30,046 nt of DNA from assembly GCA_964016885.1 (NCBI GenBank), contig CAXHJY010000597.1:1-30046 (forward strand), in the 5' to 3' direction. Source of the DNA: Eledone cirrhosa (Eukaryota). This document shows, one piece after another, positions 1,354-29,625 of the stretch. The position numbers were made by a program, and so were the translations under genes. How positions within the stretch are numbered: position 1 is the stretch's first letter; each line of letters begins with the position of its first letter. The notes under the pieces were generated by a model that saw only the letters and a list, made by a program, of their open reading frames with translations, searched no databases and was not told the origin of the DNA.

Positions 1354-1358
<5 letters not shown>

Positions 1359-1588
1359 TTTAGAAACACGCAGATACATGCGGACGCACACATATATACA
1401 TGAACGCATCCGCACCCAACTGTGAGTTAAGGGTGCCAACTTCACCGATGTTGCTCAATGAATTGGTCTGTCCCAGTCATTCATTGAGCAACATCGGTGA
1501 AGTTGGCACCCTTAACTCACAGTTGGGTGCGGATGCGTTCATGTATATATGTGTGCGTCCGCATGTATCTGCGTGTTTCTAAATATAT
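1354..1588. repeat. Perfect 110-bp inverted repeat with 15-nt loop
   Basis: atatatttagaaacacgcag...ttgctcaatgaat (1354-1463) vs attcattgagcaa...gcgtgtttctaaatatat (1479-1588). Confidence 0.95.
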
Positions 1589-1851
1589 TAATAACTCCCT
1601 CTGGTCGAGCAATCTTTGAGGTGTGGGGTCAACTGGAAAGCTTCCATTACTCATAGTTCTCGCCTTCATCACTACCTCTTCTACGGCCTCGATATGAATA
1701 CCCCCTCCGCCTCCGTGGTATTTTCTTCGTGGTTATAAGAGGCTTAGCTCTGTTTCTCGACCGTTATATCGCGTGACTATCTCCCCCTCCGCCTTTTGAG
1801 ATTCTTTCTCACGTCGTGTAGACGCGTTCTTGAGACTAATAAAATGAGGTA

Positions 1852-1939
1852 TCCTCTTGATAAGTCGGCAGACCTCGCAAGGACTCTATATCTTTGATAT
1901 ATTGTTTTTGTTTATGCCACGAAACTACGTAGTCGAGGA
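1852..1939 (+). ncRNA. Type I hammerhead ribozyme, U3-A8 core variant (copy 1)
   Basis: Stem I tcctc(1852-56)/gagga(1935-39); core UUGAUAA (1857-63); stem II gt(c)ggca/tgccac with ~44-nt loop; GAAA 1921-24; palindromic stem III ctacgtag; GUC triplet, predicted cleavage after 1934. Confidence 0.75.
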
Positions 1940-2441
1940 ATTTAGGAACAGTTTAGGTATGATACATTTTATTACTAATTATATCTAAATGTTTCTTCTC
2001 TCTTCATAATGTATTTTTTACTCTGATACTGGTTCAGTCTAGTTCAAACTGAATTGGTCTGTCCCAGTCATTCATGAGCAACATCGGTGAAGTTGGCACC
2101 CTTAACTCACAGTTGGGTGCGGATGCGTTCATGTATATATGTGTGCGTCCGCATGTATCTGCGTGTTTCTAAATATATTAATAACTCCCTCTGGTCGAGC
2201 AATCTTTGAGGTGTGGGGTCAACTGGAAAGCTTCCATTACTCATACTTCTCGCCTTCATCACTACCTCTTCTACGGCCTCGATATGAATACCCCCTCCGC
2301 CTCCGTGGTATTTTCTTCGTGGTTATAAGAGGCTTAGCTCTGTTTCTCGACCGTTATATCGCGTGACTATCTCCCCCTCCGCCTTTTGGGATTCTTTCTC
2401 ACGTCGTGTAGACGCGTTCTTGAGACTAGTAAAATGAGGTA

Positions 2442-2529
2442 TCCTCTTGATAAGTCGGCAGACCTCGCAAGGACTCAATATCTTTGATATATTGTTTTTG
2501 TTTATGCCACGAAACTACGTAGTCGAGGA
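2442..2529 (+). ncRNA. Type I hammerhead ribozyme, U3-A8 core variant (copy 2)
   Basis: Same fold as 1852-1939 at +590 offset; the only change lies in loop II; predicted cleavage after 2524. Confidence 0.75.
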
Positions 2530-2604
2530 ATTTAGGAACAGTTTAGGTATGATACATTTTATTACTAATTATATCTAAATGTTTCTTCTCTCTTCATAAT
2601 GTAT

Positions 2605-9507: not shown

Positions 9508-9548
9508 ATATATAAAGATATATATATATATATACATACACACACATA

Positions 9549-9608
<60 letters not shown>

Positions 9609-9612
9609 CACG

Positions 9613-9652
<40 letters not shown>

Positions 9653-10212
9653 CACGCACACACATATATATATATATACTCACACACACATATATATATA
9701 CACACACACATATTTATATACATATACACACACATGTATATATATATATATATACACATATATAAATATATACATATATATACACACACACATATATAAA
9801 TAAATATATATATATATGCACACATATATAAATATATATATACATATATATATGCACACACACATATAAATATATATATATATATATGAACACACATAAA
9901 TATATATATATATATGAACACACATAAATATATATATATGCACACACACACACATATATAAATATATATATATACACACATATATATATACACACACATA
10001 TGTAAATATATATATGCACACAGTTATATAAATATATATACATATATATATATATATATACATATATAAATATATATATATACACACACATATATAAATA
10101 AATATATATATATATATACACATATATATATATATATATATAAATATATATACACACACATATAAATATATATATACACACATATATATATATATATAAA
10201 TATATATATATA
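9508..10212. repeat. (TA)n/(CA)n compound microsatellite
   Basis: Direct reading. Confidence 0.93.
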
Positions 10213-10300
10213 CATTCGTTTGCAATTATCAAATATCCTCTTTTATACGCCATGTCAGTAGAAGCCATTCATTCTTACTCTTGTGTTGGCATGTAAACAC

Positions 10301-10346
10301 AACTGCAGACACTGATTCTGGATGATTACTCTTCGTCAGTGCAGTT
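10301..10346 (-). ncRNA. Minimal type I hammerhead, degenerate (GAAU instead of GAAA)
   Basis: Minus strand: aactgca CUGACGA agagtaatcatcca GAAU cagtg UC tgcagtt. Confidence 0.65.
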
Positions 10347-10604
10347 TACTGCTTACCTGCCAACTGTCAGAGCTAGTGATGTATATATACATATTTTTAT
10401 ATATCACTAATAATTAAAAAATAAAAATTCTCGCTCTACATGACTTAGTACAATATATGTAATCTGAGTTTTTCGAATATTAATAATGATATTCGATTCG
10501 TTTACAATTATGCAAACAGCCTCTTATTTATTTATATATTTATTTTTAAAGCAAAGTCAGTAGAATGAGTCCCTCATTCTTGCTCTTGTGTTGGCATGCA
10601 AACA

Positions 10605-10652
10605 AAACTGCAGACACTGTTTCTGAGTCATTACCCTTCACCAGTGCAGTTT
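10605..10652 (-). ncRNA. Minimal type I hammerhead, degenerate (CUGGUGA core)
   Basis: Minus strand: aaactgca CUGGUGA a gggt aatg actc a GAAA cagtg UC tgcagttt; stem II pairing is kept despite substitutions. Confidence 0.65.
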
Positions 10653-10884
10653 ACTGCTTACCGACCAACTGTCAGAGCTAGTGAAACATATATGATTTTT
10701 TCTAAGATATACAGTGATTGATCGGCTTAATTTGCATATTAGCAGACTGGCTGATCAGTCAGATCTGCATATTTCCAGGCCCACTGAAGGCCAGTCAGTT
10801 TCAGTTATACAAAGAGCCACTTTTATAAGCCATGTTAGTAGAAGGAGCCCTTCATTCTTACTCTTGTGTTGGTATGTAAACAGA

Positions 10885-10928
10885 ACTGCAGACATTGTTT
10901 CTGGATGATTACCCTTCATCAGTGCAGT
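10885..10928 (-). ncRNA. Minimal type I hammerhead ribozyme, intact core
   Basis: Minus strand: actgca CUGAUGA a gggt aatc atcc a GAAA caatg UC tgcagt; 6-bp stem I; GUC triplet; predicted cleavage between 10891 and 10890. Confidence 0.85.
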
Positions 10929-11152
10929 ATACTGCTTACCTGCCAACTGTCAGAGCTGGTGATGTATATATACATATTTCTATATATGAATATATATATA
11001 TTCATACTTATATATATATATATATATTTATATTTCAACACACGATTTCATAACAAAAACATTGCAAATTAAATACATTGCCATGACATGTATGTATACT
11101 TCTATATATATATATACAATTATACACACTTATATATATATATATATTTCTT

Positions 11153-12225: not shown

Positions 12226-12457
12226 CGTATATGTAAGGTGTGAGAGGAGGGAAAATATATAATACAAGATAAAAATATTTAAAAATGTCTATAATCATTA
12301 TCAGTTATTGGTTTTGTCATAACAAGAAACAACGTCCATTAGTTGTCATCATCATCATCATCATTATCACCACTACCATCATCATAATCATCATCATCAT
12401 CATCATCATCATTGCCATCACTACCAGCATCATAAACATCATCATTATTATTACCAT

Positions 12458-12650
12458 GGCGGTGGATTGGCAGTGTCGGTAGAAGGTCGGACGCCATGCT
12501 TTGACGCATAGAGTTATGGCCCTTGCCATTATGTGTTCAAATCCTGCCACGGTTAACTTTGCCTTTCATCCTTACGGGGTCGATAAAATAAAGTACCAGT
12601 AATGCACTGGGTAATTGCTGGCCTTGTGCCAAAAGTAGAAACAATTATTA
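12458..12650 (+). mobile_element. tRNA-derived SINE (octopus OK/OR-like, with conserved central core), inserted in a (CAT)n tract
   Basis: A-box-like tggcagtgtcgg (12468-79); B-box gttcaaatcc (12535-44); core gcctttcatccttacggggtcgataaaataaagtaccag, recognised from memory as a widespread SINE central domain; (att)n tail. Confidence 0.75.
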
Positions 12651-12944: not shown

Positions 12945-13144
12945 AAGGTAAGTTATTCCGGGTTGAATCGGAGGTAACCACAGTAAGTAAGGTACTCAAT
13001 ATATAGCAGAGTATAGTATAAAAGTTTTAATATAGATGAGATTCTACAGGACTTGAACTGTTTCATTCTTGAGAAATCATCAGGATTCCTGATGATTTCT
13101 CAAGAATGAAACAGTTCTAGTCCTGTAGAATCTCATCTATATTA
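12945..13144 (-). mobile_element. Family C: PLE-like 3' end (hammerhead, attaaa, ~80-nt tail) with fold-back inverted duplication
   Basis: 58-bp arms 13028-13085 / 13087-13144 with 1 mismatch and a 1-nt centre; TA tracts on both sides. Confidence 0.7.
13084..13132 (+). ncRNA. Type I hammerhead ribozyme, canonical core (mirror copy on the minus strand at 13040-13088)
   Basis: gattc CUGAUGA t ttct ca agaa t GAAA cag ttctagtc ctg UA gaatc: 5-bp stem I, short stem II, 3-bp stem III, GUA triplet. Confidence 0.85.
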
Positions 13145-23100: not shown

Positions 23101-25901
23101 CATAACTTTGAATAACTTTGAAATGTTTTGGCCAGTATTGGCCCAGGCCATGTCTAACTTAATAGCACCACCTGGCGAAGTCTTTCAATTCAGGATTTGG
23201 GCACCATGGCCCATTCGAGAAGAGAATTACTGTTTGCGGAGACATATCCGGGTGTGGGTGGTTTGTCCGGGATTACTTGGAGGAATTTGTCCAAAGACTT
23301 CTTGAATTTTGTGTGGTCAGTTTCTGTTTTGACGTGTCCTGGTGTGATGTTGAAGAGAGCAGGGCCGATTGAGGTGAAATAATTGTGCCGTATTGTTGTT
23401 ATGAGTTGCGATTTAGATTTTTGAATGGGACGGATAGCACGGGGCCCAAGCCTTGGGTGTATCTTGAAGGCGATGCCAACATCATTTGGGCAGTGATGAT
23501 GGAACATTTTCCACATCATGCAGATAATATAACGCTCACGGCGACGTTGGAGTGAGTAAAGTTTCAGGTTTTCCAATCGACCCCAGTAGTCAAGGTCTGA
23601 CATGCCATCTATCTTTTTCGTGATTGCCCTTTGAGGAGCTTCAAGTTTCATGATACTTTGTTTCGTGTGGGGAGACCACAGTGGACAACAGTATTCAAGG
23701 TCTGGTCGGGCGAAAGTAGAGAAGAAAAAGGATAATGGTGCGGGAATCTCTCGACTGGAAGGTTCTGAGGATCCAGGAACACATTCTGCGGGCCATGTCA
23801 ACTTTGCTGCTTATATGCGTGGTCCAGCTTATGTGCTGTCCACGGTTACTCCCAAGTCTCTGATGTTGTTAGATGCCACGAGAGTTTCCCAGGAGGGAAG
23901 GGAGTACGGGTGTTTCAGAGCATCCTCTTTTCCAAAGTGGATCAGTTCGAATTTGTCTTCGTTCAGTAACATGTTGTTCTTTTCTGCCCATTGGGTAACA
24001 GCCAGTAGGTCTGACTGAAGGCTTATCCGGTCATCCACGCCATTGATGACCTTTTGGAGCTTGGAATCATCAGCGAAAATTTTAATGTTGCTGTGTTTGA
24101 TGATGTCAGTGATGTCATTAATATAGATGATGAAGAGAAGTGGGCCCAACACAGTGCCTTGTGGGACTCCACTACTGACTTTGGCTGGGCTTGATTTGAC
24201 TCCCTCAACTACAACATGTTGGGTTCTGTTTGACAGGAAGCTCTTGATCCACTGCAGCAGCTTTCCAGTGACACCAATATTGGACAGCTTTCTCAGTAGA
24301 ATGTTATGATCAACCCTGTCAAAGGCCTTGCTGAAATCAAGGTAGATAACATCAGTGTTGGAACCCTCTCCCAAGGCTCTCAAAATGTCATCAAAGTGAT
24401 GCAGTAGTTGCGTCAGGCAATCCCTTCCATTACGGAATCCATGCTGGTTGGAGTTCAGCATATTGTTACTCTCAAGGAAGTGGGTCATTCGCGATCTCAC
24501 CACTCGCTCAAATACCTTAATGATATGAGAGGTGAGTGAGATTGGACGGTAATTCACGGCAAGGGATTTGTTTCCCTTTTTGAAAACTGGGACAACAGAC
24601 TGGGATAGAAGGTTTTCTGGCACATATCCAGCATCCAGTGAGTTCCGCCACAGATTGGCAAGAGGAGAAGCAAGTTGGTGTTGACACGCCTTCAAGACAC
24701 AAGCAGGGAACCTATCGGGACCTACTGCTGAATTATGCTTGATTTCCTTTATTGCCGCCAAGACATCAGGGGCGCCAAACGTTATGTCCGATAAGGTGTA
24801 ATGGGGAGTAACATCGCCGATACAGCCCAGATCGGCCATATCAGGATTGCTGAAAACAGAGCAGTATTGTTTCTGCAGTATCTCACCCATGGTTTTAGCA
24901 TTGTCTTGAAGAGTGCCATTTTCATCAATTAGAGGGCCAACAGTAGAGCCAGTGATTTTGTGTTTTTTTGCAAATGAAAAGAACACTTTGGGATTGAGTT
25001 TGATCTTCTCAATGGCCCAGGCCTCTTCAGCTCTTCTCTGATTGTTGATGAGGGACATTATGTTGTTTTGGAGGTTATGTTTTTTAATCTCTAGTGATGA
25101 AATGGCAGTCAAGTTGATGTGTTGCTGCTGACAGTATTTCAGCTTGTTGATTTTTTTGTTCGTTCTCTTAATTTTTCTGATGAGCGTTTTTCTATTTCTA
25201 GGGATTCTGCTCTTAGATTTGTTTATAGTTCTTAATGGGGTGTGTTTAGCACATATGTTTGTAACAGTGTCCACAAATGTCTGCCAGGACTTTTTGATGT
25301 TAGTGGGTGTATGAGTGTGCGTGAAGGACCAGTCGACATGTGCAAGATCATGACTGATCGCTTCCCAGTTTGCATTGTGGAAATCCATAGCGTCAAACGG
25401 ATGGACAGGAGAGATGACATTGGGTTTGTATATTGGACGGTGGAATCTCAGATCACAGAGAACCATGTCATGATCAGAGAGTAGAGTTTTCTCCACTGCA
25501 ATATTGTGGATATTGTCAGTGTGATTGCTGAAAATTAAGTCTAGGACGTTTTTGTGGCACCTCGTTGGTTCGAGCACTAGTTGGGATAGGAAGAAATCAT
25601 CCATGAAGTCAAGAAGCGATTCCACAGCTTCCCTGTCAGAGGTTGAGGCAGAAGAACCTGGTGGCAGGGTGTTTGTGGACCAGTCAACTCCGGGGAGGTT
25701 GAAGTCCCCCATCATTAAGATGTTGTCAGGGTGACGCTCTTGGATGAAACACTTTATGCTGTTGAGGCATTCCTTGAAGCATGGTACAGGCGTTTGGGGT
25801 GGCCTATAGAGCCCAACTACTAATAGGTTGTTGGTTTGACTGAATACAGTGACTGCTTCACAGTATCCATTAGTGAATATGTTCATAGCCTCTGTTGAGA
25901 A
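23101..25901 (-). mobile_element. 5'-truncated CR1-group LINE retrotransposon inserted in (TA)n
   Basis: EN-RT ORF; short 3' UTR with a ggccaatactggcc hairpin and terminal repeat (ttcaaagtta)x2; TA tracts abut both ends. Confidence 0.92.
23190..25900 (-). pseudogene. LINE ORF2: C-terminal part of the APE endonuclease, reverse transcriptase and C-terminal domain; two compensating frameshifts near 23834 and 23725
   Basis: Motifs [29 protein letters not shown] (APE); [57 protein letters not shown] (RT); RPDLEYCCPLWSP, LYSLQRRRER (CR1-type C-terminus). The ORF-track extension to 26378 is only TA repeat. Confidence 0.92.
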
Positions 25902-28092
<2,191 letters not shown>

Positions 28093-28094
<2 letters not shown>

Positions 28095-28765
28095 AACAAT
28101 TAAGTTAAAAGTGTACATCCACATATGTATACTGAAATACTAGTATGCATATAAATACACACACGTATACATATGTACATGTACCGAGTTTTTCACCGGA
28201 CACTTTACTGTGAGTGTCCACCTAGTCTGTATGTAACCAAACAGACAAACCGGGTTTTAGAGTCATACGGGTTTTCAAGGAAACACCTTTCCTCTATTCA
28301 CCAGAGAGCCAGACAGGAATATTGGACTAGTTTCGATGTTATTACATCTCATCAGCAATATATACCCATCTTCCGGCTTCTCTAGAGAATCGTAAAAGCA
28401 CATATCATTATATGCTTTTTCTATGAAAATTAGTAGTGGGCAGACTAATTTGCATAGAACGTGAGTTGTACGCACCGGTTCAGCGGAAACGATAAAAACA
28501 AATAACGAAACGAAATCAAATTTCGTTTCGTTTGTAACTCACTTTTGTATGACTGACGCTTAAACAATTAAGTTAAAAGTGTACATCCACATATGTATAC
28601 TGAAATACTAGTATGCATATAAATACACACACGTATACATATGTACATGTACCGAGTTTTTCACTGGACACTTTACTGTGAGTGTCCAGCTAGTCTGTAT
28701 GTAACCAAACAGACAAACCGGGTTTTAGAGTCATACGGGTTTTCAAGGAAACACCTTTCCTCTAT
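28093..28765 (-). mobile_element. Family D: 468-bp unit in partial tandem (205-bp direct repeats 28093-28297 / 28561-28765) carrying a minimal hammerhead
   Basis: The direct repeats differ at 2 positions; hammerhead at 28319-28361; internal hairpins; TA-rich flanks. Confidence 0.8.
28319..28361 (-). ncRNA. Minimal type I hammerhead ribozyme, fully canonical
   Basis: Minus strand: atattg CUGAUGA gatgt aata acatc GAAA ctag UC caatat; 6-bp stem I, 5-bp stem II, palindromic CUAG in place of stem III; predicted cleavage between 28325 and 28324. Confidence 0.92.
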
Positions 28766-29625
28766 ACATACATACATATATATTAATAAAATAATGAATA
28801 AACAAAGAACCAGTTCCTTATATTAAAAAAATTCATCATTTTACGATCGTTTCTAGGATATATATGTGTTAGAGTTGATATGCATATTCTATAGATCTAT
28901 GTACAATATTTATACAAACTATCAGAGGGAATATACAACCTACACATATATATGCTGTCTTCAGAAATAATGATATTTGTTTATTGAAAAAAACCAAAGA
29001 TTCAATACAATAGGTCTGTTTGGGAACAGGTTTTGAATTGACCAATAGTGAGATAGTGAGGGTCAGGATAGTAATATAGTAGTAGAAGAACCTTAAATTA
29101 TAGGTAGAGGAAGGTAGAGTGCAGTTTTGGATGGAAAACAATATTATGAATGAAGGATTATATTAGGGAAGAAATAGGTCTTATGCTGACCTCAGAAATA
29201 ATTTTATTTTTTTCATTGAATAAAACCAACAAAGATCTAATATATTCTGTCTGTTTGGTAAGAGGTTTAGAATTAACCAATAGAAAGTTAATAATTGGCC
29301 AAATGGTAAAATAGGTCAGGTGGTCAGTAAAAGGTATACAAGCAGTTGCTGTTATAAAATAGTAATGCCAATACAAATATCTAAGGTGACTAAAGTTTTA
29401 AGATAAGAATTTTAGTAAAAAAATACATCTATGAAAAGAATATAAATTAATTTAATAGATGGGTATATTTATATTGATAAAATTATACTAATACATATAG
29501 ATATGATAAATAAGAGTTAGATGCAGTTGAAAAGTGGTGTTAAAGATGAGGGGAAATTAAAAGAATATAAAAAAAATATGTATATATATACTTATACATA
29601 TATATACATACATATATGTACACAT

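What the first reader, a model, noticed from the sequence alone, without database searches (positions are those of the whole stretch)
10213..10975. Ageing three-unit minimal-hammerhead array on the minus strand
Seen: three units with predicted cleavage sites 305 and 278 nt apart. Spacers have diverged strongly while a ~135-bp block around the ribozyme is conserved. Stem II changes keep pairing (gggt/atcc vs gggt/actc). Copy 3 has an intact core; copies 1 and 2 each have one core lesion. The unit size falls in the range known for metazoan retrozymes. Inference: either an old retrozyme array or repeated insertion of related subfamilies at one site.
Basis: partly seen in the sequence, partly recalled or inferred. 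Interest (0 to 1): 0.7.

Follow-up and report, generated by a model that had tools for sequence, protein, structure and literature searches.

The report
Decayed, duplicated hammerhead retrozyme fragments
This is a worn cluster of three fragments of a common 438-base mobile repeat carrying a hammerhead (self-cutting RNA) motif; the 278- and 305-base spacings come from missing parts and a likely local duplication, not from a real repeat unit, so the site is likely inactive debris of a known kind of element.

Summary
The three hammerhead motifs and their 278/305-nt spacings are real, but this is not an array of ~290-nt units. All three belong to a dispersed family (1,019 exact hits of one 30-mer; roughly 5,000 copies) whose head-to-tail period is 438 nt (median of 77 dimers). 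Its insertions carry the Penelope footprint: (TA)n targets, inverted arms, and one tailed plus one short end in 26 of 27 two-armed loci. The window holds a 5'-truncated piece A, a nearly whole unit B and a piece C. The 'diverged spacers' are different parts of the unit. The A/B junction is unique in the genome and lies in a microhomology. A and C share a unique 5' junction and three private changes, so one is likely a local duplicate. All three lost 3 nt of the self-complementary stem III; B and C have core lesions; the intact-core copy A lacks the unit's predicted promoter. In dispersed copies the core decays about as fast as the flanks. No encoding partner and no RNA data were found. The scan already noted other retrozyme families in this genome. 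Verdict: decayed locus of a new family of a known kind.

The parts
10799..10962 (-). Piece A: 5'-truncated fragment of the family unit (positions 180-325 of reference copy L021); hammerhead with intact core, C3 10922, predicted cut after 10891; lacks the predicted promoter
10963..10987 (-). TA-rich 5' flank of A, shared with C
10797..10812 (-). A/B deletion junction in an imperfect ~13-nt microhomology; about 155-160 nt missing relative to a head-to-tail dimer
10410..10810 (-). Piece B: nearly whole unit (position 31 to the tail); hammerhead with A6->G, C3 10644, predicted cut after 10613; 19-nt AT-rich insertion
10730..10737 (-). Octamer ATGCAAAT in B, 93 nt upstream of C3; part of a predicted snRNA-type promoter
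10416..10427 (-). T-rich end (T5-A-T6) of B's Penelope-type tail
10380..10404 (-). Second copy of the TA-rich 5' flank, in front of C
10214..10379 (-). Piece C: fragment 180-331, likely duplicate of A; hammerhead with A15.1->U and a stem II mismatch, C3 10339, predicted cut after 10308
9508..10212 (.). (TA)n-type microsatellite at the 3' end of the cluster
10965..11033 (.). (TA)n-type microsatellite at the 5' end of the cluster

Best explanation
The stretch is three fragments of a dispersed, non-coding 438-nt hammerhead repeat whose copies bear Penelope-type insertion ends and were likely written into (TA)n repeats by a Penelope-like reverse transcriptase; a deletion and a likely local duplication made the 278/305 spacings, and the locus is likely inactive. 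Shown: family membership, unit length, piece map, unique junctions, lesions. Inferred history: (1) one insertion of a 5'-truncated head-to-tail partial dimer (A+B) from a template that already lacked 3 nt of loop 3; (2) duplication of the 5' flank plus A to the far side of B, giving C; (3) a microhomology-guided deletion of ~155-160 nt between A and B, after step 2 because C keeps the undeleted sequence; (4) neutral decay. Inferred life cycle of the family: transcription from an internal snRNA-type promoter starting ~15 nt before the core, self-cleavage as a dimer through the self-complementary stem III, a ~438-nt linear or circular RNA, copying by a Penelope enzyme in trans.
For: Period median 438, range 413-442 in 77 dimers. 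Unit closes on itself with no ORF upstream: of 34 pieces starting at position 1, most are preceded by the unit's own tail. Two 3' ends ~40 nt apart; 26 of 27 two-armed loci have one of each, as drawn for PLEs (PMC8557442 Fig. 2 legend; PMC11167929). Piece map. A/B junction 1 hit in microhomology. A/C 5' junction 2 hits, both here; A/C share 3 private changes in 140 columns, A/B and B/C 0 in 147; A/C distance 9.5% against 16% expected from their private divergences, whereas A/B 17% equals the sum. Short loop 3 in all three, against 0 of 54 in an unbiased sample and 12 of 204 exact hits elsewhere. Stem III duplex -8.8 kcal/mol for the family, -1.6 for A.A and A.B. Hammerhead stems have pairing probability <=0.26 in the folded array.
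Against: The autonomous partner was not found: none of 30 Penelope-endonuclease loci has this hammerhead or tail at its 3' end. A+C are sisters in the tree with support only 0.27, and B is not their sister. B ranks 86 of 114 among A's neighbours and differs from A/C at a polymorphic site; some other loci join pieces of different subfamilies, so B may be a separate insertion. The short loop 3 occurs on several subfamily backgrounds, so it may recur. Neither cleavage nor transcription was tested. The order of events rests on few characters.
Confidence: 0.7

Rival explanations
1. B is a separate insertion of the same family that landed in or beside an earlier A, with C still a duplicate of A.
For: PLEs tend to insert beside existing copies (PMC6765202 passage). 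B is not especially close to A or C. Some loci join discordant subfamilies, e.g. L018 9 of 24 and L037 6 of 19 diagnostic sites agree.
Against: B shares the rare 3-nt loop 3 deletion (0 of 54 unbiased); the A/B junction sits in a microhomology between the unit's 3' and 5' parts, as a deletion from a dimer would; A/B distance is explained by private decay.
Confidence: 0.13
2. All three pieces were made in one insertion by template jumps of the reverse transcriptase, including re-copying of the flank.
For: Complex multi-piece insertions are common in the family. All three share the short loop 3.
Against: A and C share three private changes that B lacks although it covers the same columns, which fits time spent as one DNA copy; C repeats ~25 nt of flank.
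Confidence: 0.1
3. One reading: an old retrozyme array with ~290-nt units whose spacers diverged while the ribozyme block was conserved.
For: Three direct hammerheads at spacings inside the published 170-400-nt range (PMC7229834).
Against: Spacers are non-homologous parts of a 438-nt unit; junctions are unique; core not preferentially kept; window copies are among the more decayed, 7-9% private divergence against a median of 4.2%.
Confidence: 0.03
4. The pieces are pseudo-LTR remnants of a protein-coding Penelope element rather than of a non-autonomous unit.
For: Same end structure; most PLE hammerheads in genomes are truncated single copies (PMC4209133).
Against: Unit joins tail to head without an ORF (77 dimers). 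No Neptune-type ORF in the window; the Neptune-type loci read carry other hammerheads. Only one PLE clade could be probed.
Confidence: 0.04

Closest known systems
Metazoan non-LTR retrozymes (Cervera and de la Pena 2020, PMC7229834; Li, Clavereau, Pollet 2026, bioRxiv 10.64898/2026.07.22.740005)
   Same: Non-coding short repeat, type I hammerhead, head-to-tail copies, GC 37-39%, strongly self-paired as a circle (z -2.5 to -8.4 in 4 of 4 copies), co-occurs with PLEs.
   Different: Unit 438 nt, just above the 170-400 nt given for invertebrate circles; mostly truncated monomers and 1.2-2-mers, no long arrays in the sample; circular RNA not shown; this locus is rearranged.
Penelope-like elements and their hammerheads (PMC4209133; PMC8557442; PMC11167929)
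   Same: 30-40-nt optional tail, inverted 5' arm, (TA)n targets, extra nucleotide between A9 and G10.1, palindromic stem III.
   Different: No ORF. An additional A between C11.1 and G12 in 53 of 56 copies is absent from the published PLE consensus. Stem III is 3 bp plus a 4-nt loop, not minimal.
Newt satellite 2
   Same: Hammerhead repeat with an internal snRNA-type promoter (cited in PMC2220036; original paper not held).
   Different: Promoter here is only predicted from octamer, PSE-like and TATA-like spacing; family is dispersed rather than arrayed.

Membership tests
Non-LTR retrozyme | Type I hammerhead in each unit | tested here: met
   Core and stems in family; 30 of 50 unbiased pieces have an intact core. 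Rfam models did not hit.
Non-LTR retrozyme | Head-to-tail tandem copies | tested here: met
   77 dimers, period median 438. Met for the family; the window's spacings are not units.
Non-LTR retrozyme | No protein coding | tested here: met
   Unit closes tail to head; only a ~66-codon frame, broken in the commonest subfamily by a 1-nt loop difference.
Non-LTR retrozyme | 'Active' locus: two consecutive units with complete hammerheads (Li et al. criterion) | tested here: not met
   Only A has an intact core; B A6->G; C A15.1->U and stem II mismatch.
Non-LTR retrozyme | Self-cleavage and circular RNA | not testable with these tools
   Needs bench assays and RNA data.
Hammerhead ribozyme (canonical core) | C11.1 directly followed by G12-A13-A14 | tested here: not met
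   Extra A before GAAA in 53 of 56 copies and in all three window copies; published consensus has none.
Hammerhead ribozyme (canonical core) | Core more conserved than flanks | tested here: inconclusive
   Copy level 35/677 vs 240/3870, p=0.34 (p=0.02 if polymorphic flank columns are kept). Subfamily level: 0 of 12 core columns polymorphic vs 44 of 432 overall; both stem polymorphisms keep pairing.
Penelope-mobilised element | Optional 30-40-nt tail, inverted arm, AT-rich target | tested here: met
   26 of 27 two-armed loci have one tailed and one short end; ends run into (TA)n.
Penelope-like element (autonomous) | RT plus GIY-YIG ORF between the repeats | tested here: not met
   No hit of 7 Neptune-type ORFs in the window; no linkage in 30 endonuclease loci. 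Other PLE clades not probed.
snRNA-promoter hammerhead repeat (newt satellite 2 type) | snRNA-type promoter elements at host-like spacing | tested here: inconclusive
   Octamer at -76/-77 in 2 of 3 distinct U6 loci; U2 proximal motif aligns with 0/200, 6/200 and 72/200 shuffles as good in three loci; U6 alignments not above shuffles.

The most novel reading that the evidence does not exclude
The family (not this locus) is a self-transcribing, Penelope-mobilised RNA whose hammerhead is a natural core variant with an extra A on both sides of stem II, switched on only as a dimer through a 10-bp self-complementary stem III, and transcribed from three octamer/PSE-like repeats that start the RNA ~15 nt before the core.
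Probability: 0.35. Interest if true: 0.5.

Novelty: new member of a known kind. Interest (0 to 1): 0.22.

Why it matters
The locus itself is ordinary debris, and it warns that hammerhead spacings in decayed clusters can mimic a retrozyme unit size. The family adds one more case of a protein-less hammerhead repeat with Penelope insertion ends, in line with the published proposal that PLEs move retrozymes. Its fixed extra A before GAAA would widen the known tolerance of the hammerhead core if it cleaves; Rfam models missed the window's copies.

Tried and rejected
Rfam: no hammerhead or other credible family (top hits are TA-repeat artefacts). Tandem Repeats Finder does not call the cluster. General mosaicism of insertions: most within-locus pairs agree at subfamily sites, a minority do not (72 pairs): not claimed. 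Splice donor upstream of stem I: seen, untested; the commonest subfamily loses the +5 G. Autonomous partner: not found. Allelic or duplicate locus: flank has 1 hit. Sequencing runs: no RNA holder listed; reads laid came from other family copies and none spanned the locus, so presence of the locus in other individuals is open. Assembly artefact: rejected, the copies differ by 10-17% while other duplicates in the contig are 98.6-99.1% identical. Lunse et al. 2017 and Coats et al. 1994 were not held; the supplement of PMC7229834 and one file of PMC4209133 could not be read and may bear on the extra-A claim.

Full report
Setting. The window is a whole 30-kb unplaced contig (G000:C624) of a 3.0-Gb animal genome, mostly microsatellites and mobile elements. 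Earlier scan notes call the genome octopus-like; I did not check this.

Observation. Three blocks on the minus strand read stem I - CUGANGA - A - stem II - A - GAAA - short stem III - UC - stem I. C3 lies at 10922 (A), 10644 (B), 10339 (C); spacings are 278 and 305. A has all core nucleotides, B has A6->G, C has A15.1->U and an A.C mismatch in stem II. Changes at A6 and at 15.1/16.1 lower activity in tested natural variants (PMC3088659 passages). Rfam has no hammerhead hit.

The family. A DNA search gave 2,206 candidates, 40 scored. A 30-mer 100 nt downstream of the core has 1,019 exact hits, control 0; 16 of 78 hammerhead-picked copies keep it exactly, which suggests roughly 5,000 copies (rough). 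Mapping loci on a real copy shows a unit that runs tail to head. A spaced pattern found 77 direct dimers with period median 438, range 413-442 (the pattern allowed 412-442 only). None of the 20 dimer loci read, and none of 123 other loci, has three direct hammerheads. Copies are 5'-truncated, end in (TA)n at two sites ~40 nt apart, and often have an inverted arm; 26 of 27 two-armed loci carry one tailed and one short end (113 loci typed, 86 single-armed). This is the structure described for PLEs (PMC8557442 passages; PMC11167929 parts 1-2 of 4). Penelope endonuclease matches are abundant (49,212 candidates, 150 scored), but none of 30 loci read has this repeat at its 3' end; two hold a copy as a neighbour.

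Anatomy of the window. Against reference copy L021: A = 180-325, B = 31-396 plus T-rich tail, C = 180-331. The A-B spacer is the unit's 5' part, the B-C spacer its 3' part. The A/B junction has one hit in the genome and lies where the unit's 3' and 5' parts share an imperfect ~13-nt similarity. A and C begin at the same base behind the same ~25-nt TA-rich flank; this junction has two hits, both here. A and C share 3 private changes, the other pairs none. Distances: A/B 17%, A/C 9.5%, B/C 15%; private divergences 8.8, 7.1, 7.3% against a family median of 4.2% (180 pieces). C keeps sequence that A lost at the junction, so the duplication preceded the deletion (inference). Against this: tree support for A+C is 0.27 and B is not their sister (95 pieces).

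The ribozyme. The family stem II is fully Watson-Crick; A and B each carry one C->T to G.U. The family stem III is self-complementary over 10 nt (-8.8 kcal/mol); all three window copies lack 3 nt, leaving -1.6 for A.A and A.B and -4.2 for B.B. The short form is in 0 of 54 unbiased pieces and 12 of 204 exact hits elsewhere, on several subfamily backgrounds. PLE hammerheads with such stems are thought to work as dimers (PMC4209133 parts 1-2 of 4; PMC6765202 passages). In copies picked by the downstream 30-mer, 30 of 50 have an intact core; mismatch is 5.2% in the core, 6.2% in non-polymorphic flanks (p=0.34), 7.7% in all flanks (p=0.02). The four polymorphic columns in the hammerhead are two in loop 2 and two in stem I that keep pairing: a hint of selection on source elements only. 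The extra A after A9 matches the published PLE consensus; the extra A before GAAA (53 of 56) does not. One paper search for such variants listed two papers; the passages read from PMC3088659 do not describe it; Lunse et al. 2017 was not available, so I do not claim it is unpublished.

Promoter. The unit's 5' half has three 33-bp repeats with an octamer or near-octamer. Two of three distinct U6 loci have the same octamer at -76/-77, and a U2 proximal motif aligns to the unit (0/200, 6/200, 72/200 shuffles); both place a start 13-17 nt before C3. This lead came from earlier notes. A and C lack this region; B keeps one perfect octamer but has the A6 lesion and ends in T runs. So the only intact core has no predicted promoter of its own.

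Comparison. The family fits non-LTR retrozymes (PMC7229834 passages and parts 3-4 of 6; bioRxiv 10.64898/2026.07.22.740005 parts 1-3 of 5); the locus fails that preprint's criterion for an active element. Searches for retrozyme+octopus and hammerhead+cephalopod listed no paper on such a family (listings only). The scan has notes on other hammerhead families in this genome, none by sequence on this one.

Verdict. Real motifs, known class, rearranged and decayed locus. Interest 0.22.

Noticed in passing
window 12945-13144: Two-armed insertion of a second small hammerhead family: 117-bp palindrome 13028-13144, cores at +13089 and -13083, arms joined just 5' of the core; similar joins at other loci.
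   Followed up: partly
window 28093-28768: About 1.4 units of a 468-bp repeat (98.6% identical) with a hammerhead core at -28355 and an octamer-like motif; a third family.
   Followed up: partly
window 1354-2604: 237-bp fold-back plus a 99.1% direct duplication with period 591; relative in L070.
   Followed up: no
window 23190-25880, minus strand: LINE-type frame with endonuclease and reverse transcriptase domains.
   Followed up: partly
window 12455-12645: Short interspersed repeat found in many of the fetched loci.
   Followed up: no
L018, L037, L034, L051, L147, L148: Pieces at one locus disagree at most subfamily-diagnostic sites: template switching between RNAs or repeated insertion.
   Followed up: partly
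family tail, many loci: The last ~20 nt of the unit vary strongly and are often oligo(T).
   Followed up: no
G000:C19:31.78-31.84 Mb; C3:307.35-307.45 Mb: Tandem arrays of U6 (~1.8-kb period) and U2 (~2.2-kb period) snRNA genes.
   Followed up: no
L026 / L097-L126: Neptune-type Penelope fragments, some with their own different hammerheads.
   Followed up: partly
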